This document shows, piece by piece, positions 43,936 to 63,660 of a stretch of 64,000 bases of DNA (positions are counted from its first letter, which is position 1; each line of letters opens with the position of its first letter). The notes under the pieces are model-generated. The model did not search any database and was not told where the DNA came from. It saw only the letters and a list, made by a program, of their open reading frames with translations. Source of the stretch: an uncultured Roseivirgaceae bacterium (GTDB lineage Bacteria; Bacteroidota; Bacteroidia; Cytophagales; Cyclobacteriaceae); the NCBI GenBank assembly GCA_964419145.1, contig CAYQOM010000002.1:726511-790510 (forward strand), written 5' to 3'. The position numbers and the translations under genes were made by a program.

Positions 43936-44646
43936 TCACCCACTCACAAACTTCTCCCTGAACTGCAGGTTGAACATGCCATACAACAGGCAAAGCACGG
44001 TGAGTATCATAAGATAAAGCCTGTTCTTGTAAATAACCGTCAGCCAGATAAAGTCACTCATGCCCCGTGGTTCTGAGAAGGGGTTGAGAAAAACGTTGTA
44101 GGCGCTGTATTCCAGCAGCTCAAAAAAAATGAAAAATATGAACGACACGATCACCATCACGATAGCAGTCCCGTTGCCATTCTTGATCAAGGTAGATAGC
44201 ATAAAAGCCAGTGAGGATAGAAATGTGATGGGGAAGAGCACCTGACCGATCATGGGCAGAATGCTAAAGCGGTACAGCGTCAGGTCTGCCAGAACGCCCA
44301 GGATTACTAAAATGACAGCCGCGATTCCAATCGTCAAGAAAAACCGCACGAGCCATACTTTGTATCGGTAATTCGGAATACCAAAAATGGTTTCCAGCAT
44401 TTTGGAGTCATCGTCATTTTGAATACCATAAGCCATGGGGTAGAAGATGAGCAGCAATCCCGGGAAAACCAGGAAGCCGTATATCAGAGCTTCATTAAAG
44501 TCTGAATCACCTTCGAGGATTGTAATCAGGATGATGAATCCAAAGAATAAAAATGCTGCCACCACAAAGTAAACAAACTTGTTACCAAAAATTACTTTGA
44601 CGTTATAGGTTATCAACTTATATAACAGCAGGAGATAGCTCTTCAT
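43936..44646 (-). CDS. ABC-2-type transporter permease (6 TM), last gene of the supercluster
   Basis: 236 aa with six hydrophobic helices. Its start overlaps the stop of the RND::ABC fusion gene by 4 nt (ATGA). The family is inferred from topology and coupling to the NBD, not from a diagnostic motif. Confidence 0.6.
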   Translation of the reverse strand: MKSYLLLLYKLITYNVKVIFGNKFVYFVVAAFLFFGFIILITILEGDSDFNEALIYGFLVFPGLLLIFYPMAYGIQNDDDSKMLETIFGIPNYRYKVWLVRFFLTIGIAAVILVILGVLADLTLYRFSILPMIGQVLFPITFLSSLAFMLSTLIKNGNGTAIVMVIVSFIFFIFFELLEYSAYNVFLNPFSEPRGMSDFIWLTVIYKNRLYLMILTVLCLLYGMFNLQFREKFVSG

Positions 44647-47600
44647 ATTTTTTTCGTTTTACTTTTCATCAACCATAAGTAAGCATCCTCAAGATTTGCA
44701 CGCACGGAAACAGCATCGGCTCGTGGTATTTCATCAGATAAGCACTTCACCCGTATGCGATCACCTTCGCGCATATGATGAACGATCAGGTAGTTTTCTT
44801 TCTCCACTTCAAATTGTTCTGGAGTCAAATGGAACTCCCAAACTTTCTCATGCGCCAATTCGGCCATGGTTGTTGGGCTGCCAATATATTCGATATTGCC
44901 CGAGATGAGCACCGCCAGTTTGTTACAGCTGCTGGCAATGTCTTCAATGATGTGTGTAGAGAAGACCACGATCCGTTCACGACTAAGCTCCACAAGCAAA
45001 TTTCTGAATCGGATTCGTTCCAATGGATCAAGACCTGCAGTTGGCTCGTCCACCACCAATATCTTCGGTAGGTGAAGCAAGATTTGAGCAATGCCGATTC
45101 GTTGCTTCATACCACCAGAAAAGGAGCCGATCTTCTTATGCTGATGCTCATCCATGTGGACGGCTCTCAATACGTATTGCACACGCGCTTCGCGTTCCTT
45201 ATGATTGGATATCTTCCGTAAGATGGCCTGGTAATCCAGGAACTCATACGGTGTCATGTTTTCGTAGGTACCAAAAGCTTGAGGAAGATATCCGATGAGG
45301 CCCTGGAGTTCTTCTCTTCGTAACGTAGTGTCATGACCGTTAATCCAAATCTTACCGTAACTCTGATCCAGAATACCGCAGAGAATGCGCATCAGTGTTG
45401 TCTTGCCTGCGCCATTAGGTCCTAATAATCCGAACATGCCTTGTTCAATCGTGAGACTCGCACCTTTTAGTGCCTTGAACTCCGATTTCTTTGGTTTTAT
45501 AAAAGGAATGGCGAGCAATAGTGTATAGTATAGCCTTCTGATCTTCTTAAACCGCCCGGTGATCGCATTAACATCAACCGGTTTTTCCTTAAACCTTTCA
45601 GACACGCGCACGAAGTAAAGTCCCAGGAACCAAAGTAAGATCAGGATAATCCCGAATGCCTTGATCTGCACATCGCTGTATAAATAAACAGAGCTTACTA
45701 TTGGAAATCCCCAGTACAATAAAGTATAACTGATCCGCATCAACCTTTTTCTATAGGGAATCAATTGTTTGATGGTGTGGAAGATGGAGAGCGCCAGCAC
45801 ATGGAACAAGATCATAAAGACCAGTTGCCAGAATGCCTTATCCAAATGGAAATAAATAAAATAGACCAGGAAGGCGATCAAAGCACTTTGCCAGATCAAA
45901 TCTTGCAGAACCTTGCGCCATGTCACGGGTTCCTCACCGCGTGTTTCAAAGAGATTTTTGTTTCCTTTCCATTCCCTGATCCAACGCTTATCGCGACCGT
46001 ACACTTTTGTCAGGTTTTGGATCTTGATGTGCATGGCCTCACCGGGCGCAACCATTTTTGCATTCGCCTGGCGTAGGGAAGTCATAATGAAGTGTGTAGA
46101 ACCCGGAATTAGAATAATAGCGCCAATGAATGCGATCATCTGCAGGAGCAAGCCCTCCATGCGGAGTGATATAAAAACTCCTGCCGCAATCATGAGCGCG
46201 ATCTGGATGACCTTAATACTCGCTTTAAGATTCCTGAACCAGTGCAGCACACTTTCCAGCCCGGCACTCATTGTTGGGATATAGAAAAGAGTCAGTATCG
46301 TTGCAAAGGCAAGTCCGCCCATCACGGTAACGGCAAACGGCTGTCCAACGCTCACCACATACTCAGCTTCACCAAGGGCCAACGGCAGCATGGCAGTAAT
46401 CGTTGTGAGAGAGGTTATCATGATTGGCCGAACACGTGAAATGCCACTCATCATGAGCGCGCGATATTTCGAGTATCCTTCTCTTCGCAGGATGCGCGAA
46501 TAGTCGATGAGTATTATGCCATTGTTTACCACAACACCCAACAAAATCAGGAAACCGATCAAGGTGTTTGCACTTAACAATGAATTGCCGGTAAGCGTAA
46601 GACCCAAAAACGCGCCAATGGCGGCCAGGGGAATGGAGAACATGATCACAACGGGTAAGTACAACGACTCAAACACCGCAGCGAGGATCATGAAGATGAT
46701 AATGATGGCGGAAAAGATCAGAAAGTAGAATTCATCAAACAGTCCCTCATCATGAATCGCTTCAACTACGATGCCGGAAGGGATGTTGACACCAGCTACG
46801 ATCTGATCAATCTCTATTCGGGAGGCCTCGAGCAGGGATTCTGAATTCAAAACTTCATCAATAAAGGTATACGTGATTTGTATTCGTTTTTCCTGGTTTG
46901 AGCGGGTAATTGTGCTTTCACCGGATGAGTACAAGGCGTTACCAATTTCAGAAAATGAATGTGTAGCACCTGTTGTACTGCTCACTGGCATCTCACGCAA
47001 GTCGCGCATTTCCTTCGCGGTATTAACAACCTGATTTTGCGTGCGAATGGTTATTTCATAATCTTCGCCACCGCTGATAAAGTTGGAACCTGACTCGAAG
47101 GAAGGTTGAAAATCGTTAAGGGCCACCGCCACATTTTGTAACGTGATCTGATTCTCGCTCATTCGTTTTTGATCAAAGGCCAGGTGTGCCTCAGGACGCT
47201 CCGGACTCAGATTCATGGAATGCTGTTTGATGGACTGCAGACCACCAACCATCTTATTGATGTCGGTTGAGATAGACTGCATCAATTCAAAATCCTGACC
47301 TTTGATCACGATGCGCTCCGTAGGCGTTCCTATTCCCAACATCCGTTCAAAATCATTTTGGGCTGAACTACCGACACCACCTCCATCGCCACCACCATTT
47401 TGTACAGGAGGTCTATCGAGCGAGATGGTAACGTCATCAAAATCTTTGGAGATGCCTGTCAGTTGTTCGCGCACTTCGCCTACTGAAATAGTATCCAGGT
47501 CATTGAATCCGTCAACCAGTTTCACCGTTAGCACCGCATCCGTTTCGGAAACCTGACTGATCAATTCTTTAACCACTGGTATTCCCATCACCTTTTCTTC

Positions 47601-49352
47601 GATCTTCCTGATCCGCGCATCGCTCGATTTCAATGTGCTGCCTTGCGGCATGGTGACAAACATGTTCATCTCGGTAGATTCTACTTCAGAAGAACCCGCT
47701 ATACTGACCAAAAGACTAAGGCCGATTGAAACAAAAAACAAAACCAACCCAGCCATCACCGTAAACATGGGTCTGCGGAAGCAAGACTTCAGCAAAACCA
47801 TGTACATCTGGATAAGTCGCTGACGGATCGAGGCGTTCCGGATCAAAGGCGCTTTCTGTTGATCTTCTTTGCTTATGGCCGAGTCGGTCAACATGGGGAT
47901 GAGCACCAGGGCGACAACAAGTGAAACCAATAATGTGGCGATGATGGACACACCGATATGGGTGCCGATAAGCGTAACAAGAAAATTGGACGAGTAAATA
48001 AAAGGCAGAAACACAATTACGGTTGTGAGCGTACCCGCAATTACGGACCGCATGACCTCTTGTGTTCCCCGCACAACGGCTTCTTCGCGGTTCACTTTGT
48101 TCACCACATGACGATAAATGTTTTCGATGACCACCACACTGTTGTCTACCAACATGCCTATGGCCAGGGCCATTCCGATCAGCGTAAGGCTATTGATGGA
48201 GATGTCATATGCATAGAAGAAATTGAATGCAGCATAAACGGAGATCGGTATCGAGAGCGCTATGCTCAGGATGAATTTGATCCTGCGGAGAAATATCCAA
48301 AGAACAAATATGGCCAGCAGCCCACCCGTAATGGCCAGGTCTTTAATCGCATCAATATTGCGCGACATCATCTCGGCAGTATTATTTTGCACTACGATCT
48401 GTACATCCATGGGCTCCAGATCTTTGTTGATGACGTCAATAGCGTCAAGCGTTCTTTCCGATAGGGCAATCAGGTTAGCTTGCGGGTCTTTCGATATCCG
48501 GATCGAAACAGCATCTTTTCCATTAACCCGGCTCAGTGTAGTTTGCTCTTTTACTCCGAAGAATACATCGGCCACATCACTCAGCAGTAGCGGACCTTGC
48601 TCGGATACCACCAGGTTTTGAATGTTCTTAATGTCTTGTAATTCGGCTGTTACATGAACAAAAACTTTTTGTCCTTCCATGTGCACCTGCCCGGCAAAAG
48701 CACTCTTGTTCGCGTTCCGCGAGAGCACATTGCTGATCGTATTGGGTGTGATGCCGTTTGCCTCGCATATCGCATCATGCATGATGATCTCAACCGTCTT
48801 CTGCCGGCCGCCAAAAACTTCTACGCCACCCACACCGTCCACATCGTTTAATCGGTCAACTATGTATTGGTCAGCCATATTCCTGACGCGGTCAACTCCA
48901 CCGCTGCCCAGCACCTGAACATCCATAAATCCGTTGGTGAATTCTTCTGTATCGATCTTGATAATGTTCACCAGGAACTCAGGCGTAAGGCTCGACTTGA
49001 TCGCGCCAACCTTTTGCTCCAGTTTGAGGTAAGCGTATTTGATGTTAACGCCTTGCTGAAACGAAATGAAAATCATTCCCTGTTGGCTGTTGGCATTCGC
49101 GGTGATTTCAGCGACACCTTCAAGCGTACTGATGGCACTCTCCAGCGGCACGATAGCCTGACGTTCCATATACTTGGGGTCGACTTCCGTGGCTGATTGC
49201 ACCTGAACGATCAACACTGGCAATTCAACATTAGGGAACAGCTCAACGGCAAGCTTGGTATAGGAGATATAGCCCATGAAGGTCATACCGATGAACAACA
49301 TCGATACAAGCACTTTCCTCCGGATGATTGTCTTTAGCAAACTGTTACCCAT
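44643..49352 (-). CDS. RND efflux permease (AcrB-like, 12 TM) fused through extra TM helices to a complete ABC transporter ATP-binding domain
   Basis: A 1569-aa uninterrupted ORF.
- aa 1-~1032 are RND: the N-terminus is …IRRKVLVSMLFIGMTFMGYISYTKLAVELFPNVELP…, the TM4 motif is AIGMLVDNSVVVIENI and the TM10 motif is GVVVNNGIILIDY.
- aa ~1033-1106 are two extra TM helices.
- aa 1107-1122 read MHIKIQNLTKVYGRDK, the NBD strand 1.
- aa 1123-1291 are four more TM helices.
- aa 1292-1569 are the NBD core, with Walker A GPNGAGKT (45399-45422), Q-loop GYLPQ, signature FSGGMKQR, Walker B ILVVDEPTAGLD and H-loop FSTHI. Confidence 0.85.
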   Translation of the reverse strand: MGNSLLKTIIRRKVLVSMLFIGMTFMGYISYTKLAVELFPNVELPVLIVQVQSATEVDPKYMERQAIVPLESAISTLEGVAEITANANSQQGMIFISFQQGVNIKYAYLKLEQKVGAIKSSLTPEFLVNIIKIDTEEFTNGFMDVQVLGSGGVDRVRNMADQYIVDRLNDVDGVGGVEVFGGRQKTVEIIMHDAICEANGITPNTISNVLSRNANKSAFAGQVHMEGQKVFVHVTAELQDIKNIQNLVVSEQGPLLLSDVADVFFGVKEQTTLSRVNGKDAVSIRISKDPQANLIALSERTLDAIDVINKDLEPMDVQIVVQNNTAEMMSRNIDAIKDLAITGGLLAIFVLWIFLRRIKFILSIALSIPISVYAAFNFFYAYDISINSLTLIGMALAIGMLVDNSVVVIENIYRHVVNKVNREEAVVRGTQEVMRSVIAGTLTTVIVFLPFIYSSNFLVTLIGTHIGVSIIATLLVSLVVALVLIPMLTDSAISKEDQQKAPLIRNASIRQRLIQMYMVLLKSCFRRPMFTVMAGLVLFFVSIGLSLLVSIAGSSEVESTEMNMFVTMPQGSTLKSSDARIRKIEEKVMGIPVVKELISQVSETDAVLTVKLVDGFNDLDTISVGEVREQLTGISKDFDDVTISLDRPPVQNGGGDGGGVGSSAQNDFERMLGIGTPTERIVIKGQDFELMQSISTDINKMVGGLQSIKQHSMNLSPERPEAHLAFDQKRMSENQITLQNVAVALNDFQPSFESGSNFISGGEDYEITIRTQNQVVNTAKEMRDLREMPVSSTTGATHSFSEIGNALYSSGESTITRSNQEKRIQITYTFIDEVLNSESLLEASRIEIDQIVAGVNIPSGIVVEAIHDEGLFDEFYFLIFSAIIIIFMILAAVFESLYLPVVIMFSIPLAAIGAFLGLTLTGNSLLSANTLIGFLILLGVVVNNGIILIDYSRILRREGYSKYRALMMSGISRVRPIMITSLTTITAMLPLALGEAEYVVSVGQPFAVTVMGGLAFATILTLFYIPTMSAGLESVLHWFRNLKASIKVIQIALMIAAGVFISLRMEGLLLQMIAFIGAIILIPGSTHFIMTSLRQANAKMVAPGEAMHIKIQNLTKVYGRDKRWIREWKGNKNLFETRGEEPVTWRKVLQDLIWQSALIAFLVYFIYFHLDKAFWQLVFMILFHVLALSIFHTIKQLIPYRKRLMRISYTLLYWGFPIVSSVYLYSDVQIKAFGIILILLWFLGLYFVRVSERFKEKPVDVNAITGRFKKIRRLYYTLLLAIPFIKPKKSEFKALKGASLTIEQGMFGLLGPNGAGKTTLMRILCGILDQSYGKIWINGHDTTLRREELQGLIGYLPQAFGTYENMTPYEFLDYQAILRKISNHKEREARVQYVLRAVHMDEHQHKKIGSFSGGMKQRIGIAQILLHLPKILVVDEPTAGLDPLERIRFRNLLVELSRERIVVFSTHIIEDIASSCNKLAVLISGNIEYIGSPTTMAELAHEKVWEFHLTPEQFEVEKENYLIVHHMREGDRIRVKCLSDEIPRADAVSVRANLEDAYLWLMKSKTKKI

Positions 49353-52530: not shown

Positions 52531-52548
52531 AAGAGACTTGTTTAGAAA

Positions 52549-53607
52549 TTATTGAATAACGCTGACTTTCGATTTGTTTCTCAGGGTTTCAAAACCTGCG
52601 ACCACGAGCCGGTCATTGACCTTCAGCCCGTTGGTAACTTCGATTACATCGGCATTCTCCAGTCCGGTAGTTATTTTCTTTTCAGTTGCTATACCATTTT
52701 CTACGGTAAACACCACCTTACCATCTTGACGGGAGATAATGGTTTGTTTTGGGATAACGATGGTATTGTCACGTTTCTCAGATAGAATGAATGCTTTGAT
52801 AAACATGCCAGGTCGCAACGATCGTTTTGCATTGTTTATCTCCAGCACACTTTGAAACGTTCGGGTATCCGCATTAATGGCTGGGGAGATCTGGCTGATC
52901 TTCCCATAAATGGTATCGTTCGCTACATTATAGTTAGCAATTTGAACGGTCTGGTCCATCGTTACTTCAGGCAAATGTTTCTCAGGGAGCTTTACATCCA
53001 TCAACAGTTTATCGTATTGCATGATTTTTAAAAGCATCTGCCCTTGATCGATTTTTACGCCATTCGTGTGATACGGTAATTCTACAATCACTCCATCAAA
53101 GGGAGCGCGTATGGTCATCTTAGCCTGTTGTATCTCCGCATTCTCAAACGCATACTTGGCATTGACGTATGATATCGCAGCATTTTTTAATTCGGTTTGT
53201 GTAACACCGCCTTTGTCATACAAGGACTGTTGCTTCTTTAGATTATTGTCGGCAAGCTCGAGGTTGAGTCTCTTACCTTCCGTCTGAAGGTTGTTTTCAA
53301 ATTCCTTGTCTTCCAGTCGGATCAACACTTGTCCGGCTTTAACTGCATCGCCCAACGCGAAAGGTTTTCCGGTTGATGGATTACGTTGCAGTTGGTAAAC
53401 ACCACCAATCTCGGATTTCATGGCACCTTCCTTAAAGGCATACACGGTGCCTGTAGTTTCAATGAATCGGGAGATGCTCTGTGGCTTGATGCTTATCACC
53501 GACACGGGGATCTTGATCTCCGTTTTAATGTTTGCGTCTTCCGAGTTGCAGCTTGCCAGTGCAATCAATACCAGCAGGGGAAGGATTTCTTTAATATGCT
53601 TTTTCAT
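52549..53607 (-). CDS. Efflux RND periplasmic adaptor (membrane fusion protein), lipoprotein
   Basis: 352 aa with a lipobox (LIALASC). It has a lipoyl/hairpin pattern (…AGQVLIRLEDKEFENNL…coiled coil…TIRAPFDGVIVEL…) and a C-terminal beta-barrel. Confidence 0.85.
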   Translation of the reverse strand: MKKHIKEILPLLVLIALASCNSEDANIKTEIKIPVSVISIKPQSISRFIETTGTVYAFKEGAMKSEIGGVYQLQRNPSTGKPFALGDAVKAGQVLIRLEDKEFENNLQTEGKRLNLELADNNLKKQQSLYDKGGVTQTELKNAAISYVNAKYAFENAEIQQAKMTIRAPFDGVIVELPYHTNGVKIDQGQMLLKIMQYDKLLMDVKLPEKHLPEVTMDQTVQIANYNVANDTIYGKISQISPAINADTRTFQSVLEINNAKRSLRPGMFIKAFILSEKRDNTIVIPKQTIISRQDGKVVFTVENGIATEKKITTGLENADVIEVTNGLKVNDRLVVAGFETLRNKSKVSVIQ

Positions 53608-53636
53608 TCTGTATGATGTTGGGTTCAGTTGGATGA

Positions 53637-55148
53637 TTAATTTTTAGGGATAAGCACAGGCTCTTGTGTTTCAAAATCGTAAAGGGATTGAATCTTTAGG
53701 TTGAGCAATTCAATTTTATAGTTAATCAACGCATCGGCCAGTGCGCTCTTCTTTTCCGAAAGCTGGCTTTGAAATCTATTGAGATCGATACTGGTCAGGT
53801 CGCCATTCTTGTATCGCTCAAGATTCAAGTCGTAGGTCAACGTGGCGTTCTTTACATTTTGTTGAGCGATGGTTATTTGATTTTCCAGATTTTGCAGGTT
53901 CCGGTAAATCTTCCTTATACTGATGATGATGTTATTTTTTTCTACATCCAGGTCAACTTTCCTTATCTCGAGTGAGGTGTTGGTTGCGTCCATTCGTGCC
54001 CTGTTCTCACCCCAGTCGAAGATGGGTATGCTAAAGGAAATGGCTACTCGCGGATTAACGGCAGGCGACTCATACACCATAGGCGCGCGCTCGTTATCAC
54101 CAAAAACAGCTAATGACAAGCTCACCGAACCTTTAAATTCATTCAACGCCTTCGTTCGAATTAATTCAAACTGCGATCGCTCAATGTCTATCGAACGCTG
54201 TCGCAATTCCATTCTGTTGTCCAGTCCAAACTGAAGTGCTTGGTTTAAGTCCACTTTCCGGGTAATAAAATCAATGTTCACCTCAACGGCTACTTGTTCA
54301 GTCAAGTCCATGCCGAGTAAAAGTTTGAAGTCATCGGCAGCATTATCGAGCAATACCTGATTGGTTTCCATGGTCGACTTGGATGTGGCCAGGTTGAGTT
54401 CGGCCTGATAAAGTTCTTCTTGCGCCAGCAGGTCAGCGTCTACTTTGTTCTTCGTGATTTCGTAACTGATTCTCTGATTCTCATATTCATCTTTCGAAAT
54501 CTGGAGCGTGTTCTGTCGCTGGTAAAAAGTATAAAACGACTGCGTAACGCTTTGTTCCAAGCTTAATAATTGCAATGAATTGCTGATGGTGGCATTCTCC
54601 AGGTTCAACTCCAGTTCCTTTAACTGAATCTTTGTTCGGTTGTATGTAAAGATGGGCTGGTCTAATTGAAGATATAAGTTGTTGCTGTACGTCTTGGTTC
54701 GGACATCCTGAAACTCGGAATAGTTATCTCTGTACCCAAACCGGTTGATTAACGATATGCGGCCATCGGTTGCCAAAATGGGCTGGCTCACTGAAAAATT
54801 GGCGAATGAATTATAGTCTCTGTTTGTGTTCCATAGCGAAAACAAATCGTTGAACATCCGGCTCTGGTTGAAATCGAACGGGGTAACGTCTAACGCGAAC
54901 TTTGACTTTAAAGCCGCGCGTTGAGCATCCAGGCTGCGCTGACTACCATACAGATTCAACATTGATTTTTTTATGTTTAGACTGCTCTGCTGTGCAATCT
55001 TAATCGCTTCGTTCAGCGTGAGTTTACGCTGCGCGTTCGCGCTCGTCCAGCTAAGTACGATGCATGCCAGCAAGAGAAATCCAGTTGTTAAACGCACGAA
55101 TCGTCTATTGTTCCATTTCATTGTTTTCCTTAAACCCATGTGATTCAA
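53637..55148 (-). CDS. TolC-family outer membrane efflux protein
   Basis: 503 aa with a signal peptide (…VLSWTSANAQ). The start LTLNEAIKIAQQSSLNIKKS is typical of the family. The internal duplication of long helical segments is consistent with an OEP/TolC fold. Confidence 0.8.
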   Translation of the reverse strand: MNHMGLRKTMKWNNRRFVRLTTGFLLLACIVLSWTSANAQRKLTLNEAIKIAQQSSLNIKKSMLNLYGSQRSLDAQRAALKSKFALDVTPFDFNQSRMFNDLFSLWNTNRDYNSFANFSVSQPILATDGRISLINRFGYRDNYSEFQDVRTKTYSNNLYLQLDQPIFTYNRTKIQLKELELNLENATISNSLQLLSLEQSVTQSFYTFYQRQNTLQISKDEYENQRISYEITKNKVDADLLAQEELYQAELNLATSKSTMETNQVLLDNAADDFKLLLGMDLTEQVAVEVNIDFITRKVDLNQALQFGLDNRMELRQRSIDIERSQFELIRTKALNEFKGSVSLSLAVFGDNERAPMVYESPAVNPRVAISFSIPIFDWGENRARMDATNTSLEIRKVDLDVEKNNIIISIRKIYRNLQNLENQITIAQQNVKNATLTYDLNLERYKNGDLTSIDLNRFQSQLSEKKSALADALINYKIELLNLKIQSLYDFETQEPVLIPKN

Positions 55149-55198
55149 ATTTTGAAGTTGGAGTTTGTCTTTTATTTAATGTTTTATCTATTATCTGC

Positions 55199-58100
55199 TC
55201 ATTGCTTAACCCACTTCACCGCATCCGCATACACAGTCCAGAGCTCGCACTCATCCGTCAACGAAACACTGCCACCGGTTTTATTGAAATAATACGAACC
55301 CAGATAATTCCAGCCCGGCTCTGCATTTGTGATATTGTACTTGAGGTTGTCCGTTCCATCGGCATTTTGAATGATATAGTTGTAATCGAATTGCTTGCCT
55401 TCAGCACTGCGACCCGTCCAGGTGTTTTGGTTTTTGCCGCGCATGTATACATACAAATCGTAGAAGCCAGCCTCTTTCAATTCAGCAGTCCACGTGGCGA
55501 CCTTTTCACCATTTCCCGACCTTGTGAAATGTGCCGAGCGGATAATACTACCAAAAAAATCAGATCCCGTGGTGGCCAGCCAACTCGAGTATGAGCTATC
55601 CCACTCGCCATAGTACTTCTGCTCGGTGGCTTTTCGGCTATCCATGTAGGCTTTCAACACCGTGGGCTTGATAGGACTGAAGCTGCTGAAACCGGAATCC
55701 TCATTGTCAACGATTACTTCATATTGAATCGGGACTTCTTCTTTGTCAACAACCCGTTCACCATCAAATAGAATTCCGCCCGCGCGGCTAGACAAAGTTC
55801 CCATAGATATGTTGATTACAGAGGGAATATTTCTTGAAATGATAGTATTGATAGTGAGTGAATTCGGTTTTTCATCGAGCAAAAAGCCAAGAAGCTTCGT
55901 CTCGCCTTGCTTGATTACCGAAAGTTTCCCCGGAGCTTCTTCTTCAACGTCCTCATTCACCTTGTTGTAATACTCATCATCATCCGTGTTTTGCTTGCTG
56001 TTGAACTTTACTTCCAGTACACCATCACTATCACCCGAATTTTTCACTTTCACCAGCACTTGATACCGTTTTCGGTCAACGTCTGTTACCTCATATTTCT
56101 GAATATCCAGAATTTCGAAAGCTGGTTGAGAAGTTTCTGAATACACTTCGCGGATAACCGGGTCAATATCAATTTGAAATCGCGAAAGCATCGCTTTCCG
56201 GAAATCCTGATAATCGCTTAGTTGATGTTGATGGTTGTTTACCCAATCGTATAAGAAAGTTTTGAATTGGGTTTCACCCATGGTGTTGCCCAGGTAGGAG
56301 AAGAGGTACTGGCTTTTCAGCGTTACCGCTTTGTTGATTTTGCTGAACTCTGCCTCCGTCAGGATTTTCGTCATTGAAGTAGTGTGCATCAGGTTGTTGC
56401 ATTCCTCCGTGAACGAGATTCCGTTCATGGACCGGGTATAGTCGTTCTGAACTTGTTTGTCATTTCTAAGGTAAGTGGCCATACTCCGGTTTAGCAGCGG
56501 CCAATCCCGACTCACTACACCTGAATTGAAATCATAATAAATAGGAAAGAGAGAATAGTCAGCATTGTCGAAATCCTGACCTTCATTCACCCATCTTTCT
56601 CCAATTTGTTTGGTGAAAACTTTCCGTACCAAATCGTTAAAGACATTGGCTTGTTTCTGTTTGTCTGTGAGCACTTGATTTGTTTTGGCAGCTTGCGTAT
56701 TCATGTCCAGGAGTTGCCGCCTGAAATCGAACTGCCGTATTTCACCACCTTCTTCCGGCCAGAAAACTGTTTCGGGTTGGATAAATGCCATGTGACTCTC
56801 GTATATTTTTCTGTAAGCCGTAAGCATCATGGGCACTTCAACAAACTGCATCCTTTTGAAAGGATACTTGAGTTGTTGCGCGTCTTCATATTCAGTGGCT
56901 ACATCGGTAATCAGGTAGCTGAGTGTATCGCCCAGTTGATTGAGTTGCTTCACGAAGAAATCATTCTTTGGATAATGAAATACTGAATAGGTGATGCTAT
57001 CCACTACGATCTCTTTTTTTGCATAAGCACCAATAACAAGTGAGATGTGCGGCAGCGGATATTCAGGCTTGAAGTGGTAGGTATCTCCCACGAGCACAAC
57101 TTCTCCTTGTGAAATAGGCGTTTGGCCGGCAGGAGCTTTAACCATCAATTCAAACGTGATGAAGGATTGTCTCTCTTTAGCTGCCGATTCTTTATTATAA
57201 CCAACTTCTGTGTCTGGATACCAAAGCACATCTTTGGTTAGCAATACATAATCATCCTCCAGAAAACCATACTTCTTGGGTAAGGAAAACATAAAGTGGT
57301 CATTCGCAGTTTCATAGCGTTTTTGATCAACTTCAAGATGCGCGACTGATTCCAATACCGAACCATGGTATTGAATCTGAACTTTTGTTTCAGCATCCGG
57401 TTCAAGGGCAACACCCTGGCTTATGGAAATAATTTGTAAGTCTCTTGTAAACTCGGTGGGTTTATCGTTCAGGAGTACGGCATCAACAGTAAGACCGGGA
57501 TTCAATGTGAAATAGATCGTATCAAGCCGCTCACTCGTATTATTTCTTACCCGCATGTTCGAATGGCTAACAATCTCATTGCCGACCCACTCCAATTCGA
57601 TGGTATGTGAGTTTATCTCAGCGTTTGGCTTATTTATCCACCGGCCGTTAACTGCTATCATCTCTTGCCGCATATCCATGGAGCTTTGCCGCATGTTCCA
57701 GAGATTGAACATGATAAAAGAGGATAGTAGAAGCAGCGCGGCACCCACTACAGCCGTAGCCCGATGTGAGGTCTTGTGGCCGGCCAATCGGTCCAGTAGA
57801 AATGCCGTGATGAAAAGAAACGCGATGCCTGTAATCAAATAGAATGTGCGTTGCCACAGCGCAAATTCAATATCGATGAAGCCCGTCATCTCGGAAGCCA
57901 GCATGGAAAGCCGAAACGAAGTGAAATCCAGGATGTTTGAAAACTTATCGAAATAATAAATCAACTGAACGCCAGCTAAACCAATAAGCAACACGATGGA
58001 GATCGGTTGATTTCGGATAACGGTTACCAACAGAAATGCTATACCTGTTGTAAATACAATACTGGGAACGCTCGTGAGCAACGGATAAATAAGGAAAGCC

Positions 58101-58531
58101 GTTGGGTTGATGGTAGCAAGCGGATTGGTCAGCCCCACAATCAATGGTATGCAAAGTAAAACGAGATTTAAAAGGAAGAAGAGTTTAAAGAGCGCCAATG
58201 CCTTCCCCAGAACGTAATCCAGGTTGGATATCGGTCGAACAAAAAAGACTTCATTGGTATCCAGTTTTTTATCTTTCTTCACTAACCCGGTTGCTAAAAA
58301 GATAACAGCAGCGGCCTGGGGTATGCTGATCATCAACAAGCTGGAATAGGGAAGCACCCAGCCGTTGGCCAACTCGCTCCACCGTGGCGTACCGATAGCA
58401 GAAAACACCGCTAAGTTGAAAATCGTGAGGAAGAAAATACCGGCCAAGGCAACAATCCTGAAAAACCAATTTCGCCACAACACCCTGGACTCGAATGCAG
58501 CAATCGTCAATATGTTTTTAACCGACATCAT
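55199..58531 (-). CDS. ABC-2-type permease (7 TM) fused to a large (~820 aa) periplasmic domain, possibly M1-aminopeptidase-like but lacking HExxH
   Basis: 1110 aa. The first ~290 aa contain seven hydrophobic helices, which should place the remainder outside the cytoplasm. The following region (…NSHTIELEWVGNEIVSHSNMRVRN…IYFTLNPGLTVDAV…) resembles the N-terminal beta domain of M1 peptidases. I found no HExxH anywhere in the translation. The C-terminal ~130 aa form a beta-rich module (…GFYDLYVYMRG…PGWNYLGSYYF…). The start overlaps the ATPase stop by 4 nt. Confidence 0.6.
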   Translation of the reverse strand: MMSVKNILTIAAFESRVLWRNWFFRIVALAGIFFLTIFNLAVFSAIGTPRWSELANGWVLPYSSLLMISIPQAAAVIFLATGLVKKDKKLDTNEVFFVRPISNLDYVLGKALALFKLFFLLNLVLLCIPLIVGLTNPLATINPTAFLIYPLLTSVPSIVFTTGIAFLLVTVIRNQPISIVLLIGLAGVQLIYYFDKFSNILDFTSFRLSMLASEMTGFIDIEFALWQRTFYLITGIAFLFITAFLLDRLAGHKTSHRATAVVGAALLLLSSFIMFNLWNMRQSSMDMRQEMIAVNGRWINKPNAEINSHTIELEWVGNEIVSHSNMRVRNNTSERLDTIYFTLNPGLTVDAVLLNDKPTEFTRDLQIISISQGVALEPDAETKVQIQYHGSVLESVAHLEVDQKRYETANDHFMFSLPKKYGFLEDDYVLLTKDVLWYPDTEVGYNKESAAKERQSFITFELMVKAPAGQTPISQGEVVLVGDTYHFKPEYPLPHISLVIGAYAKKEIVVDSITYSVFHYPKNDFFVKQLNQLGDTLSYLITDVATEYEDAQQLKYPFKRMQFVEVPMMLTAYRKIYESHMAFIQPETVFWPEEGGEIRQFDFRRQLLDMNTQAAKTNQVLTDKQKQANVFNDLVRKVFTKQIGERWVNEGQDFDNADYSLFPIYYDFNSGVVSRDWPLLNRSMATYLRNDKQVQNDYTRSMNGISFTEECNNLMHTTSMTKILTEAEFSKINKAVTLKSQYLFSYLGNTMGETQFKTFLYDWVNNHQHQLSDYQDFRKAMLSRFQIDIDPVIREVYSETSQPAFEILDIQKYEVTDVDRKRYQVLVKVKNSGDSDGVLEVKFNSKQNTDDDEYYNKVNEDVEEEAPGKLSVIKQGETKLLGFLLDEKPNSLTINTIISRNIPSVINISMGTLSSRAGGILFDGERVVDKEEVPIQYEVIVDNEDSGFSSFSPIKPTVLKAYMDSRKATEQKYYGEWDSSYSSWLATTGSDFFGSIIRSAHFTRSGNGEKVATWTAELKEAGFYDLYVYMRGKNQNTWTGRSAEGKQFDYNYIIQNADGTDNLKYNITNAEPGWNYLGSYYFNKTGGSVSLTDECELWTVYADAVKWVKQ

Positions 58532-59418
58532 ACCAGCGACACGCCAAATTCATTCTCCATGAAATATACATATGCGTGTTCCAGGTTTGGATTGGCTGCT
58601 TGCGCAACAGGATGGGGCCTTTCATGGGCAATCACCTGCACTTCCCAATTTCCTTCAACCGGAATGGTTGACACCACCGGATACTTTGCTTTGAGTGTAT
58701 CAAACTCTTCATCGTTCAATAATACCTGCCACACATGGCCCCGCACCCGGTCAATCATGCCTTCGGGCGAGCCTTTGAAAGCCACCTCACCTTTGTTAAG
58801 CATCGCCATGTTATGGCATGTACTGGAGATGTCGCCTACAATGTGTGTGGAGAGTATAATCGTAACGTCTTTCTGACTGAGATCGGAAAGGATGTTACGA
58901 AAGCGAATGCGCTCCTCCGGATCAAGACCGGTGGTGGGCTCATCAATCACCAACAAGCGTGGTTCACCAATGAGTGCCTGCGCAATCCCAAGCCTTCGTT
59001 TCATTCCACCAGAAAGTTTGTTGGCCATTCGATCACGCACATCCAGTAAACCCACCTGATCCAATAATTTATCAACTTTGGCGATTCGCTCTTTTCTTTT
59101 CAATGATGTGGCGAGTTGCGCGGCATAATCCAAAAACTCCCACGTTTTTAGTTTGGAAAAAAAGGTGAAGTCCTGAGGCAGATAACCCACCAGTCGCCTG
59201 ATTTCATGACGGTTTGTATTGATGTCCATGCCATCCATCAGCACTGTTCCCGAAGTTGCTTTCTGGGCCGTAACCAGTATCCGCATAAAGCTTGACTTCC
59301 CCGCTCCGTTTGGCCCGAGCAGCCCAAACATACCGCTCCCGATTTGCAGGTTGATATTCTTAATGGCAGCATGGCCATTGGGGTAAATTTTAGAAAGCCC
59401 GGATATCTCAATATTCAT
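58528..59418 (-). CDS. ABC transporter ATP-binding protein (ABC-2/DrrA-like) with a C-terminal ~75-aa extension
   Basis: 296 aa with Walker A GPNGAGKS, Q-loop GYLPQ, signature LSGGMKRR, Walker B LLVIDEPTTGLD and H-loop LSTHI. It is clearly paralogous to the NBD fused to RND-2. Confidence 0.92.
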   Translation of the reverse strand: MNIEISGLSKIYPNGHAAIKNINLQIGSGMFGLLGPNGAGKSSFMRILVTAQKATSGTVLMDGMDINTNRHEIRRLVGYLPQDFTFFSKLKTWEFLDYAAQLATSLKRKERIAKVDKLLDQVGLLDVRDRMANKLSGGMKRRLGIAQALIGEPRLLVIDEPTTGLDPEERIRFRNILSDLSQKDVTIILSTHIVGDISSTCHNMAMLNKGEVAFKGSPEGMIDRVRGHVWQVLLNDEEFDTLKAKYPVVSTIPVEGNWEVQVIAHERPHPVAQAANPNLEHAYVYFMENEFGVSLV

Positions 59419-60581: not shown

Positions 60582-60582
60582 A

Positions 60583-63656: not shown

Positions 63657-63660
63657 GTGT

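What the first reader, a model, noticed from the sequence alone, without database searches (positions are those of the whole stretch)
43936..59418. Candidate undescribed system: two ABC half-transporters bracketing and fused to a TolC-adaptor-RND-RND efflux core
Seven co-directional minus-strand genes are packed tightly. In order:
- ABC ATPase (59418-58528)
- 4-nt overlap
- 7-TM permease with an ~820-aa periplasmic domain (58531-55199)
- 50-nt gap
- TolC (55148-53637)
- 29-nt gap
- adaptor lipoprotein (53607-52549)
- 18-nt gap
- RND-1 (52530-49345)
- 8-nt overlap
- RND-2 fused to an ABC ATPase (49352-44643)
- 4-nt overlap
- 6-TM ABC-2 permease (44646-43936)
- strong terminator (43781-43814)

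Tandem RND genes with one adaptor recall the MdtABC-type heteromeric pumps. I know of no characterised case where the second RND subunit is covalently joined to an ABC nucleotide-binding domain, or where the operon supplies a second paralogous NBD and two dissimilar ABC-2 permeases.

The parts list amounts to one heterodimeric ABC transporter (NBD-A+TMD-A, NBD-B+TMD-B) physically tethered to a PMF-type tripartite pump that shares a single adaptor and a single outer-membrane channel. Possible readings are an envelope-spanning exporter using both ATP and proton-motive force, an ATP-gated RND pump, or a processing-and-export machine that uses the large periplasmic domain.
Basis: partly seen in the sequence, partly recalled or inferred. 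Interest (0 to 1): 0.9.

Follow-up and report, generated by a model that had tools for sequence, protein, structure and literature searches.

The report
Conserved RND efflux pump fused to ABC ATPase
A seven-gene operon found in hundreds of Bacteroidota-type bacteria builds an outer-membrane-spanning efflux pump in which a proton-type (RND) transporter is covalently joined to an ATP-driven (ABC) transporter, a combination nobody has characterised.

Summary
All seven minus-strand ORFs sit at the stated coordinates with the stated domains. The 1569-aa ORF really is a complete RND transporter followed by an ABC ATPase.

It is not chance adjacency or an assembly artefact:
- RND2+linker+NBD is one ORF in 79 of 80 species genomes examined.
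- The order ATPase-A / big permease / TolC / adaptor / RND1 / RND2::ATPase-B / small permease recurs in every locus with enough flank, bar two rearranged ones.
- This holds down to 30-50% identity, in Cytophagales, Bacteroidales, Saprospirales and other MAGs.

1. Six extra TM helices follow the RND. ATPase-B is split: its first strand, with the invariant A-loop Tyr1118, is separated from the core by a conserved ~170-aa, four-TM insertion.
2. Both RNDs lack two HAE-1 proton-relay residues (D408, K940) but keep D407, R971 and T978.
3. The ~680-aa periplasmic domain has an M1-aminopeptidase fold but no HExxH in 68/68 homologues, so it is not a protease. It is followed by a CBM-like Golvesin_C domain.
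4. Both ATPases keep all catalytic motifs.

No literature was found. The mechanism (ABC-to-RND substrate relay versus ATP-driven or ATP-gated RND) remains inferred.

The parts
58528..59418 (-). NBD-A: stand-alone ABC ATPase, 296 aa. Key residues are A-loop Y12, Walker A K41, Walker B E160 and H-loop H192, followed by a C-terminal ~70-aa beta domain.
   Evidence: ABC_tran scores 1e-30, and the nearest NCBIfam families are DrrA, GldA and NodI, all below their cut-offs. The catalytic motifs are conserved in 63 homologues. The gene lies directly upstream of the big permease in 60 of 80 metagenome loci; the other loci are truncated.
57638..58531 (-). TMD-A membrane domain: aa 1-298 of the 1110-aa protein. 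It has an amphipathic N-helix and 7 TM helices. The first six are ABC-2-like, and the seventh carries the chain into the periplasm.
   Evidence: A hydropathy scan gave the TM helices, and AF2 models them at pLDDT about 75-90. Of 20 homologues, 12 hit ABC2_membrane_2 (best 1e-8); the window copy itself hits ABC2_membrane_4 only at 0.0027.
55592..57637 (-). TMD-A periplasmic domain with an M1-aminopeptidase-like fold and no catalytic motif (pseudo-peptidase), aa ~299-980.
   Evidence: Peptidase_M1 hits weakly at 5e-4. Foldseek matches PepN, ERAP1 and IRAP at E about 1e-10 over about 655 columns, but the model confidence is low here. HExxH is absent in the window and in 68 of 68 homologues.
55199..55591 (-). 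TMD-A C-terminal Golvesin_C domain (Golvesin/Xly CBD-like beta-sandwich), aa ~981-1110. Coordinates include the stop codon.
   Evidence: PF25275 scores 7e-10, above its cut-off. Homologues are annotated as 'golvesin C-terminal-like domain-containing protein'. The motif (I/V)(V/L)DNEDxGF is conserved.
53637..55148 (-). TolC-family outer-membrane factor with a signal peptide ending ...SANA. The true start is probably an ATG slightly downstream of the TTG at 55148.
   Evidence: OEP scores 2.6e-32 and TIGR01844 1e-20. The translation shows the N-terminus. The position is conserved.
52549..53607 (-). Periplasmic adaptor (membrane-fusion) lipoprotein of the RND type, with lipobox LASC.
   Evidence: TIGR01730 RND_mfp scores 203 bits against a cut-off of 94.9, and HlyD_D23 scores 4e-24. 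The lipobox is visible in the translation.
49345..52530 (-). RND-1, 1061 aa. Relay positions are D427 (AcrB D407 equivalent), I428 (D408), N953 (K940), R983 (R971) and T990 (T978). A Thr-rich insert lies at aa ~254-280.
   Evidence: ACR_tran scores 5.5e-206. The protein is below every NCBIfam RND cut-off.
46263..49352 (-). RND-2 portion of the fusion, aa 1-1030. It is 27% identical to RND-1. Relay positions are D403, N404, N943, R973 and T980.
   Evidence: ACR_tran covers aa 6-1028 at 2.7e-151. The best PDB sequence match is MdtB, and that alignment shows DN in place of DD and N in place of K.
46062..46223 (-). Two-TM hairpin after RND TM12 (aa ~1044-1097), which returns the chain to the cytoplasm.
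   Evidence: AF2 models helices 14-34 and 38-67 of the submitted segment at pLDDT 86-91. Hydropathy agrees. The hairpin is conserved in homologues.
45993..46034 (-). First beta-strand of NBD-B, MHIKIQNLTKVYG, carrying the A-loop Tyr1118. It is separated from the rest of the NBD.
   Evidence: This segment aligns to NBD-A residues 1-12. I80, L85, K87, Y89 and R91 are invariant in alignment A1. AF2 models it as a strand, E79-90.
45495..45992 (-). Insertion of ~170 aa inside NBD-B: an amphipathic helix, four TM helices and a short helix (aa ~1121-1286). It is family-specific, with no Pfam or PDB match.
   Evidence: AF2 models helices 93-107, 115-139, 143-167, 172-197, 201-226 and 239-251. Pairwise alignment needs a 170-aa gap here. 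Pfam and PDB profile searches found nothing. The linker occurs in only 73 of 1.84 billion cluster representatives.
44643..45494 (-). NBD-B core: Walker A K1317, signature FSGGM, Walker B E1436 and H-loop H1467, followed by a C-terminal beta domain. Coordinates include the stop codon.
   Evidence: ABC_tran scores 8e-29. Foldseek matches TM_1403, NosF, LptB and ABCA NBDs. The core is 41% identical to NBD-A. The motifs are conserved in all homologues.
43936..44646 (-). TMD-B: 236-aa, 6-TM permease, a divergent ABC-2-like protein with a highly conserved cytoplasmic TM2-TM3 loop (Q76 D78 D80 E85 ... Y93 R94 Y95).
   Evidence: The window copy has no Pfam hit. Of 28 homologues, 3 hit ABC2_membrane_3, best 2.5e-5. 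It follows the fusion gene in 78 of 80 genome loci. Conservation is shown.
43781..43814 (-). Bidirectional intrinsic-terminator-like hairpin closing the operon.
   Evidence: The stem has 11 bp, of which 5 are GC, with a 3-nt loop and a T-run.
59545..62191 (-). Possibly associated upstream module; its membership in the system is uncertain. It encodes an ABC ATPase (276 aa), a 262-aa membrane protein, a short GntR/YtrA-like regulator (116 aa) and a DUF2807/DUF4097 'toastrack'-like protein (229 aa).
   Evidence: Domains come from Pfam. The module is syntenic next to the cassette in Cytophagales relatives L083, L087, L091, L093 and L095, and in the distant L155 and partly L161. It is absent from most Bacteroidales-type loci.

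Best explanation
**What it is.** The seven genes encode one composite, envelope-spanning exporter.

**The duct.** A TolC-family channel, a single RND-type adaptor lipoprotein and a heteromeric RND pump (RND-1 plus RND-2) form it.

**The tether.** RND-2 continues at its C-terminus into a 2-TM hairpin and an ABC ATPase (NBD-B). NBD-B's first strand and A-loop are separated from its core by a 4-TM insertion. This places an ATPase permanently under the RND membrane domain.

**The ABC module.** NBD-B, its paralogue NBD-A and two dissimilar ABC-2-type permeases form an ATP-driven module tethered to the pump. TMD-A carries a periplasmic, catalytically dead M1-aminopeptidase-like domain plus a CBM-like domain. 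TMD-B is a small 6-TM protein.

**Most likely mode of action (inferred, not shown).** A two-step relay inside one machine:
1. The ABC-2 module uses ATP to extract or flip an amphiphilic substrate out of the inner membrane or cytoplasm. The substrate probably bears peptide or glycan.
2. The pseudo-peptidase/CBM domain holds the substrate in the periplasm.
3. The substrate is handed to the RND porter domains, which expel it through the adaptor and TolC.

**Shown versus inferred.**
- Shown: the parts, the fusion, the split NBD, the conservation and the intact ATPase motifs.
- Inferred: complex formation, stoichiometry, direction of hand-over, substrate and energy coupling.

My confidence that ABC and RND parts work together physically is about 0.8. 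The 0.45 given as confidence is for the specific relay mechanism.
For: **Domains.**

**Fusion is real and conserved.**
- RND-2, linker and NBD-B are a single ORF in 79 of 80 species genomes, and 71 of these have full-length RND-2 in the same ORF.
- About 20 full-length cluster representatives are all 1550-1590 aa, with the linker at about residues 1025-1290.

**Whole cassette is conserved in order.**
- The order TMD-A...TMD-B is complete in 58 genome loci.
- NBD-A lies directly before TMD-A in 60 metagenome loci, and NBD-A through RND-2 is complete in 41.
- This holds at identities down to 27-50%.
- No other conserved neighbours exist apart from a lineage-restricted upstream module. The cassette is therefore self-contained.

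**Topology is coherent.** 12 RND TM plus 2 TM, then cytoplasmic strand 1, then 4 TM, then the cytoplasmic NBD core.

**ATPases look active.**
- Both NBDs keep Walker A, Walker B, signature and H-loop in all homologues.
- The A-loop Tyr is invariant.

**ABC-2 class.**
- The NBD fold matches the ABC-2/type V class: TM_1403, NosF, LptB and ABCA.
- The TMD-A membrane domain hits ABC2_membrane_2 in 12 of 20 homologues.
- TMD-B hits ABC2_membrane_3 weakly.

**Periplasmic domain binds rather than cuts.** It has an M1 fold without HExxH, plus Golvesin_C.

**Operon structure.** The genes are tightly packed or overlapping, with one strong terminator at the 3' end.

**Established knowledge.** RND pumps take substrates from the periplasm or outer leaflet and cooperate with single-component pumps that move them across the inner membrane. 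ABC-2 systems can work with adaptors, as in YbhGFSR.
Against: - There is no experimental or multimer-model evidence that the ABC parts contact each other or the RND trimer.
- The substrate is unknown, and no biosynthetic genes are linked.
- The ABC-2 assignment of TMD-B is weak. The window copy has no hit, and TMD-A versus TMD-B is not significant by hhalign.
- NBD-A/TMD-A and NBD-B/TMD-B are each translationally coupled pairs, so they could be two separate homodimeric transporters.
- Both RNDs lack the D408 and K940 equivalents. The RND part may therefore not be a normal PMF pump, which favours the ATP-driven rival.
- Two loci deviate. L051 has the fusion plus TMD-B without the upstream genes nearby. 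In L165 the cassette stops after the adaptor.
- The AF2 model of TMD-A is low confidence in much of the periplasmic part.
Confidence: 0.45

Rival explanations
1. ATP-powered or ATP-gated RND pump. The NBD-A/NBD-B dimer does not transport anything itself. Through the 2-TM hairpin and the 4-TM insertion packed against the RND-2 membrane domain, it drives or licenses the RND conformational cycle. This replaces or supplements a reduced proton relay. The ABC-2 permeases serve as stators or coupling elements.
For: - Both RNDs lack two canonical HAE-1 relay residues. D408 is replaced by N or I, and K940 is N in 110/112 RND-1 and 107/107 RND-2 sequences.
- RND-2, the fused subunit, never has a second acidic residue in TM10. 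RND-1 has Asp at the N941 position in 71 of 112 homologues.
- The NBD is anchored to the membrane at three points.
- The insertion begins right after the A-loop Tyr, an ideal place to couple TM movement to nucleotide binding.
- The fusion is invariant.
Against: - The D407, R971 and T978 equivalents are invariant, and E of the VEN motif is present. A one-Asp relay may still use PMF.
- HME-type RNDs also deviate from the DD/K pattern (own knowledge).
- This reading does not explain why two full ABC-2 permeases, one with an ~810-aa periplasmic extension, are conserved.
- There is no precedent for an NBD driving an RND fold.
Confidence: 0.25
2. Two functionally independent transporters, an ABC-2 exporter and an RND tripartite pump, are merely co-expressed. 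The fusion serves only co-localisation, stoichiometry or stability, for example for substrates of a common pathway.
For: - Each NBD gene overlaps its own permease gene by 4 nt, the usual layout of self-sufficient ABC-2 pairs.
- The adaptor is of the RND type.
- Nothing measured here demonstrates coupling.
Against: - The covalent fusion is invariant across lineages that share only 30-50% identity. No unfused full-length version was found among 1.84 billion representatives.
- Gene order is strictly conserved, with ABC genes at both ends of the RND core.
- An NBD tied to one subunit of a trimeric pump is awkward for an independent dimeric ABC transporter.
Confidence: 0.15
3. Not primarily an exporter of small molecules. 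The ABC-2 module is a mechanotransducer of the NosDFY, FtsEX or LolCDE type. It uses ATP to move the large periplasmic pseudo-peptidase/CBM domain, for example to sense or remodel cell-wall or glycan material, or to assemble or regulate the pump as part of an envelope-stress response.
For: - NosF is among the best structural matches for NBD-B.
- The TMD-A membrane domain falls in the NosY/GldF-type Pfam family ABC2_membrane_2.
- The periplasmic domain is a non-catalytic binding scaffold.
- In Cytophagales the cassette sits next to a YtrA-like GntR regulator, an ABC pair and a toastrack-like protein. Such a set is typical of envelope-stress modules.
Against: - A complete TolC, adaptor and two full-length RND transporters are conserved with it, which argues for export.
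- The upstream module is missing in most lineages.
- No enzyme partner is conserved nearby.
Confidence: 0.1
4. Artefact or strain-specific accident: a lost stop codon or frameshift fused two genes, or ABC and RND operons lie side by side by chance.
For: None found. The single-window observation alone could not exclude it.
Against: - The same single ORF occurs in 79 of 80 species genomes, and the same seven-gene order in about 100 loci from independent assemblies.
- The linker is itself a conserved domain, with 30-38% identity across orders and invariant residues.
Confidence: 0.01

Closest known systems
MdtABC-TolC (heteromeric HAE-1 RND pump of Enterobacteria)
   Same: - Two paralogous RND genes sit in tandem behind one adaptor gene.
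- MdtB is the best PDB sequence match of RND-2 (2.7e-64).
- A heterotrimer with functionally specialised subunits is a plausible model.
   Different: - RND-1 and RND-2 are not MdtB/MdtC orthologues. Their scores are far below the NCBIfam cut-offs.
- The relay is D-N/N instead of D-D/K.
- The OMF is encoded in the operon.
- One RND subunit carries 6 extra TM helices and an ABC ATPase.
- Three further ABC genes belong to the unit.
MacAB-TolC (ABC-driven tripartite pump, type VII ABC)
   Same: - An ATPase-containing inner-membrane component works with an adaptor and TolC.
- A large periplasmic domain sits on an ABC permease.
- The logic of mechanotransmission or substrate pick-up from the periplasmic side is similar.
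   Different: - No FtsX/MacB-type 4-TM domain or MacB periplasmic domain was detected.
- The permeases are ABC-2-like.
- The adaptor is RND-type.
- An RND trimer is present.
YbhGFSR and other ABC-2 (type V) exporters such as DrrAB, NodIJ and LanFEG
   Same: - The NBD class matches: DrrA, NodI, GldA and lantibiotic-protection ATPases are the best NCBIfam neighbours.
- The system uses two different ABC-2 permeases.
- It is associated with an adaptor protein, as in YbhG (own knowledge; YbhFSR paper PMC7190983 listed, not read).
   Different: - One NBD is fused to an RND transporter and split by a 4-TM insertion.
- One permease carries an ~810-aa periplasmic extension.
- All scores are below family cut-offs.
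NosDFY(L) ABC complex
   Same: - NosF is among the top structural matches of NBD-B, including the C-terminal regulatory-type domain (PDB 7osf, 7o0y).
- The TMD-A membrane domain hits the NosY-type family ABC2_membrane_2.
- ATP hydrolysis there serves a large periplasmic partner domain.
   Different: - In Nos the periplasmic protein NosD is a separate beta-helix protein, and the system matures an enzyme.
- Nos has no RND, adaptor or TolC.
M1 aminopeptidases (PepN, ERAP1, IRAP)
   Same: The overall multi-domain fold of TMD-A residues ~300-980 matches (Foldseek E ~1e-10 over ~655 columns). There is also a weak Pfam Peptidase_M1 hit.
   Different: - No HExxH zinc motif is present in the window or in 68/68 homologues.
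- The domain is anchored to an ABC-2 membrane domain.
- It is followed by a Golvesin_C domain.
CFTR NBD1 regulatory insertion (own knowledge, not tested here)
   Same: An insertion sits between strand 1 and strand 2 of an ABC NBD, showing that this site tolerates extra sequence.
   Different: The CFTR insertion is a ~30-aa soluble, disordered segment. Here it is ~170 aa forming four TM helices.

Membership tests
RND superfamily transporter (ACR_tran) | 12-TM protein with two large periplasmic loops matching PF00873 above its cut-off. | tested here: met
   RND-1 scores 686.9 bits and RND-2 505.9 bits against a cut-off of 28.
HAE-1 type RND (AcrB/MexB/MdtB/C) | Canonical proton relay: TM4 Asp-Asp (AcrB D407, D408), TM10 Lys (K940), TM11 Arg (R971) and Thr (T978). 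| tested here: not met
   - D407, R971 and T978 are kept.
- The D408 equivalent is I428 in RND-1 and N404 in RND-2.
- The K940 equivalent is N953 and N943 respectively.
- Family-wide, position 408 is N in 104/112 RND-1 and 103/107 RND-2. Position 940 is N in 110/112 and 107/107.
HAE-1 type RND (AcrB/MexB/MdtB/C) | Scores above the curated NCBIfam cut-offs (RND_permease_1/2, MdtB, MdtC, TIGR00915). | tested here: not met
   The best score is 577 bits for RND-1 and 436 bits for RND-2, against a cut-off of 1250. MdtB and MdtC models score 250-370 bits against cut-offs of 1584-1774.
Tripartite RND efflux system | Cognate periplasmic adaptor (RND_mfp) and outer-membrane factor (OEP) encoded with the transporter. 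| tested here: met
   TIGR01730 scores 203 bits against a cut-off of 94.9, and OEP scores 112.6 bits against 22. Both are syntenic in all loci with enough flank.
Tripartite RND efflux system | RND subunits assemble as a trimer (here a heterotrimer) that docks the adaptor hexamer and TolC. | not testable with these tools
   No multimer modelling or experiment was available.
ABC ATPase (both NBDs) | Walker A, Q-loop region, signature, Walker B Glu and H-loop present. | tested here: met
   - NBD-A has GPNGAGKS, LSGGM, LLVIDEP and STHI.
- NBD-B has GPNGAGKT, FSGGM, ILVVDEP and STHI.
- These are conserved in 63 and about 82 homologues respectively.
- ABC_tran scores above its cut-off for both.
ABC ATPase (NBD-B) | Contiguous NBD, with strand 1/A-loop directly followed by strand 2 and Walker A. 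| tested here: not met
   A 170-aa insertion with four TM helices lies between Y1118 and the core.
ABC-2 (type V) permeases | 6-TM membrane domain matching ABC2_membrane families. | tested here: inconclusive
   - For TMD-A, 12 of 20 homologues hit ABC2_membrane_2 (best 1e-8), but the window copy reaches only 0.0027, below the cut-off.
- For TMD-B, 3 of 28 homologues hit ABC2_membrane_3 (best 2.5e-5), and the window copy has no hit.
- There is no PDB sequence match for either.
ABC-2 (type V) transporter complex | Two NBDs plus two TMDs form one transporter, here proposed as the heterodimer NBD-A/NBD-B with TMD-A/TMD-B. | not testable with these tools
   Only paralogy of the NBDs (41% identity) and gene pairing are known.
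MacB-type (type VII) ABC tripartite pump | NBD fused to a 4-TM FtsX-type domain with a periplasmic domain between TM1 and TM2. | tested here: not met
   No FtsX or MacB_PCD hit appears in any product. The periplasmic domain of TMD-A follows TM7.
M1 metallo-aminopeptidase | Overall M1 fold. | tested here: met
   Foldseek matches PepN, ERAP1 and IRAP at E 7e-11 to 3e-9 over ~655 aligned columns. The model has only moderate to low confidence.
M1 metallo-aminopeptidase | HExxH(x18)E zinc-binding and catalytic motif. | tested here: not met
   No HExxH is present in the window protein or in 68/68 homologues. The Pfam score is below its cut-off, 20.2 against 27.7 bits.

The most novel reading that the evidence does not exclude
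This is the first transporter in which an RND pump is mechanically coupled to ATP hydrolysis.
- The NBD-A/NBD-B dimer is anchored by a family-specific six-TM bundle. That bundle splits NBD-B right after its adenine-stacking A-loop.
- The dimer drives or gates the conformational cycling of an RND heterotrimer whose canonical proton relay has been reduced.
- One tripartite machine would therefore run on ATP, or on ATP plus PMF.
Probability: 0.27. Interest if true: 0.95.

Novelty: new variant of a known kind. Interest (0 to 1): 0.84.

Why it matters
Tripartite efflux pumps are classified by the single energy-coupling family at their base: RND, ABC or MFS. This system is conserved in hundreds of environmental and gut-associated Bacteroidota-type species, and it puts two of those families into one polypeptide and one operon.

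If the modules cooperate, there are two possibilities:
- A hard-wired relay from the cytoplasm or inner membrane to outside the cell. This would settle, for one system, how substrates reach an RND pump.
- An ATP-driven or ATP-gated RND, which would be a new energy-coupling principle.

The NBD split by a four-helix membrane insertion is also a new way to wire an ABC ATPase to a membrane domain.

In practical terms, this is an unannotated efflux system. Its parts are currently named 'hypothetical protein', 'efflux RND transporter permease subunit' and 'ABC transporter ATP-binding protein'. It could matter for antimicrobial tolerance or for surface-molecule export in these bacteria.

Tried and rejected
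**Readings rejected.**
1. Artefactual fusion or chance adjacency: rejected.
2. Active periplasmic peptidase ('processing' reading): rejected, since no HExxH is present in 68/68 homologues.
3. MacB-type architecture: no FtsX or MacB domains.

**Tests that gave nothing useful.**
4. TMD-A and TMD-B as recognisable paralogues: hhalign probability 2% and E 0.02, not significant. The cytoplasmic TM2-TM3 loops show a similar D..D...E pattern, though.
5. Sequence-profile searches of TMD-A TM domain, TMD-B and linker against PDB: no hits at E<=10. Pfam on the linker gave only noise.
6. Conserved neighbours that might reveal a substrate or pathway: none beyond the lineage-restricted upstream GntR/ABC module.
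7. The sigma-70-type promoter and terminator scan gave counts equal to shuffled expectation. The Bacteroidota -7 motif TAnnTTTG is not enriched, and on the minus strand it occurs only once inside the cassette, at 59325-59332. Nothing informative came from this beyond the strong 3' terminator.
8. Seven full-text literature searches, and term look-ups in the 2021 Chem Rev review of tripartite pumps (only its first 300,000 characters are held), found no description.

**Technical limitations.**
9. The first homologue search listed only fragments under 950 aa of the fusion. These come from fragmented or frameshifted assemblies such as L001 and L002. Full-length evidence had to come from the genome scan and the representative search.
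10. The AF2 model of TMD-A is only moderate (pLDDT 61.5), so details of the periplasmic domain are not trusted.

Full report
**1.

- 59418-58528
- 58531-55199
- 55148-53637
- 53607-52549
- 52530-49345
- 49352-44643
- 44646-43936

Junctions and boundaries:
- The junction sequences show the ATGA-type 4-nt overlaps, the 8-nt RND-1/RND-2 overlap and short gaps.
- The only strong terminator-like hairpin in 17 kb is 43781-43805 followed by a T-run. Weak terminator-like and sigma-70-like matches are no more frequent than in shuffled sequence.
- The TolC ORF's TTG start is doubtful. An ATG 9 or 27 nt downstream precedes a normal signal peptide.
- The adaptor has a lipobox, LASC.

Domain assignments:

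| Product | Assignment |
|---|---|
| ATPase-A | ABC_tran |
| 1110-aa protein | N-terminal TM helices, sub-threshold Peptidase_M1 match, Golvesin_C above cut-off |
| TolC | OEP |
| Adaptor | RND-type (TIGR01730, 203 bits, above cut-off) |
| RND-1 | ACR_tran, 687 bits |
| 1569-aa protein | ACR_tran over residues 6-1028, plus ABC_tran over 1295-1439 |
| 236-aa protein | six hydrophobic segments, no Pfam hit |

**2. The fusion and the cassette are conserved, not accidental**

The junction region (aa 1031-1290) is itself a conserved domain. All 120 best database hits to the C-terminal 537 aa carry it, at 30-38% identity in distant lineages.

*Genome scan.* I scanned one genome per species with an alignment of this linker.
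- The best 80 loci come from:
  - Cytophagales: Fulvivirgaceae, Marivirga, Cyclobacteriaceae and Roseivirgaceae.
  - Bacteroidales-type lineages: Prolixibacteraceae, Marinifilaceae, Porphyromonadaceae, Rikenellaceae and Odoribacter.
  - Flavilitoribacter.
  - A few MAGs labelled Calditrichaceae, Zhuqueibacterota and Deferribacteres.

*Layout in the genome loci.* Window proteins were blasted against all ORFs of these loci.
- RND-2, linker and NBD are one ORF in 79 of 80 loci. The 80th begins inside the linker.
- Full-length RND-2 is in that same ORF in 71.
- The small permease follows in 78.
- The complete order big-permease end / TolC / adaptor / RND-1 / fusion / small permease appears in 58. 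Nearly all the rest are cut by contig ends.

*Metagenome scan.* A second scan used the C-terminal part of the big permease and reached 10 kb upstream.
- At least 404 relatives were found.
- ATPase-A lies directly before the big permease in 60 of 80 loci.
- The order from ATPase-A to RND-2 is complete in 41.

Identities to the window in the distant loci:

| Component | Identity (%) |
|---|---|
| ATPase-A | 55-67 |
| Big permease | 25-40 |
| TolC | 38-55 |
| Adaptor | 43-52 |
| RND-1 | 45-52 |
| RND-2 | 42-52 |
| Linker | 28-40 |
| ATPase-B | 58-81 |

*Family size.* An exhaustive HMMER search of 1.84 billion cluster representatives finds the linker in only 73 clusters. About 20 of these are full-length. 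All are 1550-1590 aa with the linker at residues ~1025-1290, and no complete unfused form turned up.

*Exceptions.*
- L051 has the fusion plus small permease without the upstream genes nearby.
- In L165 the cassette stops after the adaptor.
- L163 has an extra membrane-protein gene between the adaptor and RND-1.

*Neighbours.* Clustering of flanking ORFs found no other conserved neighbour except a four-gene upstream module in some lineages. The seven genes are therefore a self-contained unit.

**3.

*(a) The fusion junction.*
- After RND TM12 come two TM helices.
- Next is a cytoplasmic segment MHIKIQNLTKVYG. It aligns to residues 1-12 of ATPase-A, the first beta-strand and the A-loop aromatic residue (Y1118 here, Y12 in ATPase-A).
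- Then follows ~170 aa: an amphipathic helix, four TM helices and a short helix.
- Only after that comes the rest of the NBD (FKALKGASLTIEQGMFGLLGPNGAGKT...).
- A pairwise alignment with a cheap long gap places exactly this 170-aa gap. With the insertion removed, the two ATPases are 41% identical over 289 aa, including a shared C-terminal ~70-aa beta domain.
- I80, L85, K87, Y89 and R91 of the strand-1 segment are invariant in 12 diverse homologues.
- AlphaFold2 on aa 1031-1569 with 97 homologues gives mean pLDDT 84.9. It models helices at 14-34 and 38-67, a strand at 79-90, a helix at 93-107, four long helices spanning 115-226, and then a normal NBD.
- Foldseek places the NBD with the ABC-2/type V class: TM_1403, NosF, LptB and ABCA.
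- The topology is self-consistent. Even numbers of TM helices separate every cytoplasmic element.
- The inserted membrane domain has no Pfam or PDB relative.

*(b) The ATPases.* Both keep Walker A, signature, Walker B Glu and H-loop in every homologue examined. There is no degenerate site to indicate an obligate asymmetric heterodimer, and both are presumably active.

*(c) The RND paralogues.*
- They are 27% identical to each other.
- Each is 42-52% identical to its orthologues in distant lineages. The duplication therefore predates the spread of the cassette.
- Relay positions, from alignment to MdtB and a 221-sequence alignment:

| AcrB position | RND-1 | RND-2 |
|---|---|---|
| D407 | D invariant | D invariant |
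| D408 | N in 104/112; Ile in the window | N in 103/107 |
| K940 | N in 110/112 | N in 107/107 |
| R971 | R in 111/112 (one gap) | R in 107/107 |
| T978 | T in 111/112 (one gap) | T in 107/107 |
| N941 | D in 71/112 | never D |

- A low-identity sequence with the canonical Lys at this position is in the set. It is probably the unrelated RND gene in L054, which would serve as an internal control, but I did not trace it to that locus.
- These are therefore not canonical HAE-1 pumps. They also score below every curated RND cut-off.
- Whether a one-Asp relay still uses PMF cannot be decided from sequence.

*(d) The big permease.*
- It has an amphipathic N-helix and seven TM helices.
- Its membrane domain hits ABC2_membrane_2, the NosY/GldF-type family, in 12 of 20 homologues, best 1e-8.
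- The periplasmic part matches M1 aminopeptidases by fold, at E ~1e-10 over ~655 columns. The model is only moderately confident, with mean pLDDT 61.5.
- It has no HExxH in the window or in 68/68 homologues. It is a binding scaffold, not a protease.
- It ends in a Golvesin/Xly CBD-like beta-sandwich.

*(e) The small permease.*
- It is a divergent ABC-2-like 6-TM protein: 3 of 28 homologues hit ABC2_membrane_3.
- Its cytoplasmic TM2-TM3 loop is nearly invariant. That is the position of the NBD-coupling helix in type V ABC transporters (own knowledge).
- The two permeases are not recognisably related by hhalign.

**4. How it most likely works**

Shown:
- The parts list.
- The covalent tether.
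- The split but catalytically complete NBD.
- The strict co-inheritance of all seven genes.

Inferred, best explanation:
- This is one supercomplex.
- The ABC-2 module is probably NBD-A/NBD-B with TMD-A/TMD-B. It uses ATP to extract or flip an amphiphilic substrate from the inner membrane.
- The pseudo-peptidase/CBM domain holds the substrate in the periplasm.
- The RND heterotrimer takes it over and expels it through the adaptor and TolC.

This fits three pieces of established knowledge: RND pumps load from the periplasm or outer leaflet, ABC-2 exporters handle membrane-associated amphiphiles, and ABC-2 systems can use adaptors.

Hints about the substrate are weak:
- The NBDs resemble DrrA, NodI, GldA and lantibiotic-protection ATPases.
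- The periplasmic domain combines a peptide-binding fold with a glycan-binding-type module.
- In Cytophagales the cassette adjoins a YtrA-like GntR/ABC/toastrack module reminiscent of envelope-stress units.

Rivals:
- ATP-powered or ATP-gated RND is the main rival. It is favoured by the reduced relay, by the absence of a second acidic residue specifically in the fused subunit, and by the insertion starting right after the A-loop.
- Two independent transporters merely co-expressed is disfavoured by the invariant fusion.
- A NosDFY- or FtsEX-like mechanotransducer role is the remaining alternative.

I put about 0.8 on physical and functional cooperation of the modules, 0.45 on the relay and 0.25 on ATP-coupled RND.

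**5. Comparison with known systems and novelty**

Similarities to known systems:
- The cassette resembles MdtABC in its tandem RND paralogues.
- It resembles MacAB-TolC and YbhGFSR in combining ABC with an adaptor.
- It resembles NosDFY in pairing ABC-2 with a periplasmic domain.

Defining features it fails:
- The HAE-1 relay and curated cut-offs are not met.
- No MacB/FtsX domain is present.
- NBD-B is not contiguous.
- The M1 zinc motif is absent.

Literature and annotation:
- Seven full-text searches and a comprehensive 2021 review returned no description of an RND-ABC fusion or of this cassette.
- Database names for the parts are generic or 'hypothetical'.

I classify it as a new variant of a known kind: a tripartite efflux system with a covalently attached ABC-2 module. 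There is roughly a one-in-four chance that it is a categorically new energy-coupling arrangement.

**6. Limits**

- No multimer modelling, expression data or experiment was available.
- The substrate is unknown.
- TMD-B's family assignment is weak.
- The TMD-A model is of limited quality.
- Literature coverage is restricted to open-access text.

Noticed in passing
window 59545-62191 (minus strand): A four-gene module lies directly upstream of the cassette: an ABC ATPase (276 aa), a 262-aa membrane protein, a short GntR/YtrA-like regulator (116 aa) and a DUF2807/DUF4097 toastrack-like protein (229 aa). It is syntenic with the cassette in Cytophagales relatives (L083, L087, L091, L093, L095) and in the distant L155 and partly L161. 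It is absent from most Bacteroidales-type loci. It may be a regulatory or sensing unit for the pump.
   Followed up: partly
window 49345-52530, RND-1 aa ~254-280: A Thr/Pro-rich low-complexity insert (TTTSPALPSTTTTTTTNNTPALS) sits in a periplasmic loop of RND-1. It has no counterpart in RND-2.
   Followed up: no
RND-1 homologues in L003-L165 (alignment): The TM10 position after the K940 equivalent is dimorphic. It is Asp in 71 of 112 RND-1 sequences and Asn in 41, including the window. It is never Asp in RND-2. This suggests lineage-specific differences in how, or whether, RND-1 couples to protons.
   Followed up: partly
L010 (Marivirga tractuosa strain ac6, NZ_CP159478.1) 3729-6924: RND-1 is split into two ORFs, covering aa 1-479 and 481-1060. 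This is a frameshift or pseudogene in this complete genome, while the rest of the cassette is intact.
   Followed up: no
L051 1-13221; L165 13700-21089; L163 7607-8875: These are rare departures from the canonical cassette.
- L051 has the fusion plus small permease with unrelated opposite-strand genes upstream.
- In L165 the cassette ends after the adaptor.
- L163 has a 422-aa multi-TM protein inserted between the adaptor and RND-1.
   Followed up: partly
window 63006-63969 (minus strand): An AbiEii-type nucleotidyltransferase toxin (PF08843, 9e-19) lies at 63006-63656, with a small 102-aa ORF immediately upstream at 63661-63969. This is a likely type IV toxin-antitoxin pair.
   Followed up: no
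window 5488-11442, 19160-22984, 17152-19110, 12218-13882, 25576-28071: There is a dense cluster of signalling genes.
- A 1984-aa GAF plus multi-PAS histidine kinase.
- A 1274-aa CHASE-PAS histidine kinase.
- Further histidine kinases and a hybrid kinase.
- An 831-aa Ser/Thr protein kinase with TPR repeats.
   Followed up: no
window 34288-36504 and 36961-39165: A GH97 glycoside hydrolase and a catalase-peroxidase-type (PF00141) 734-aa protein lie next to a LysR regulator at 39333-40268. They are unrelated to the cassette.
   Followed up: no
output; L001, L002: The 120 best database hits to the fusion's C-terminal part are all fragments under 950 aa. In L001 and L002 the RND genes are broken into many ORFs, which indicates frameshift-rich assemblies. 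Automatic annotation therefore mostly hides the fusion.
   Followed up: partly
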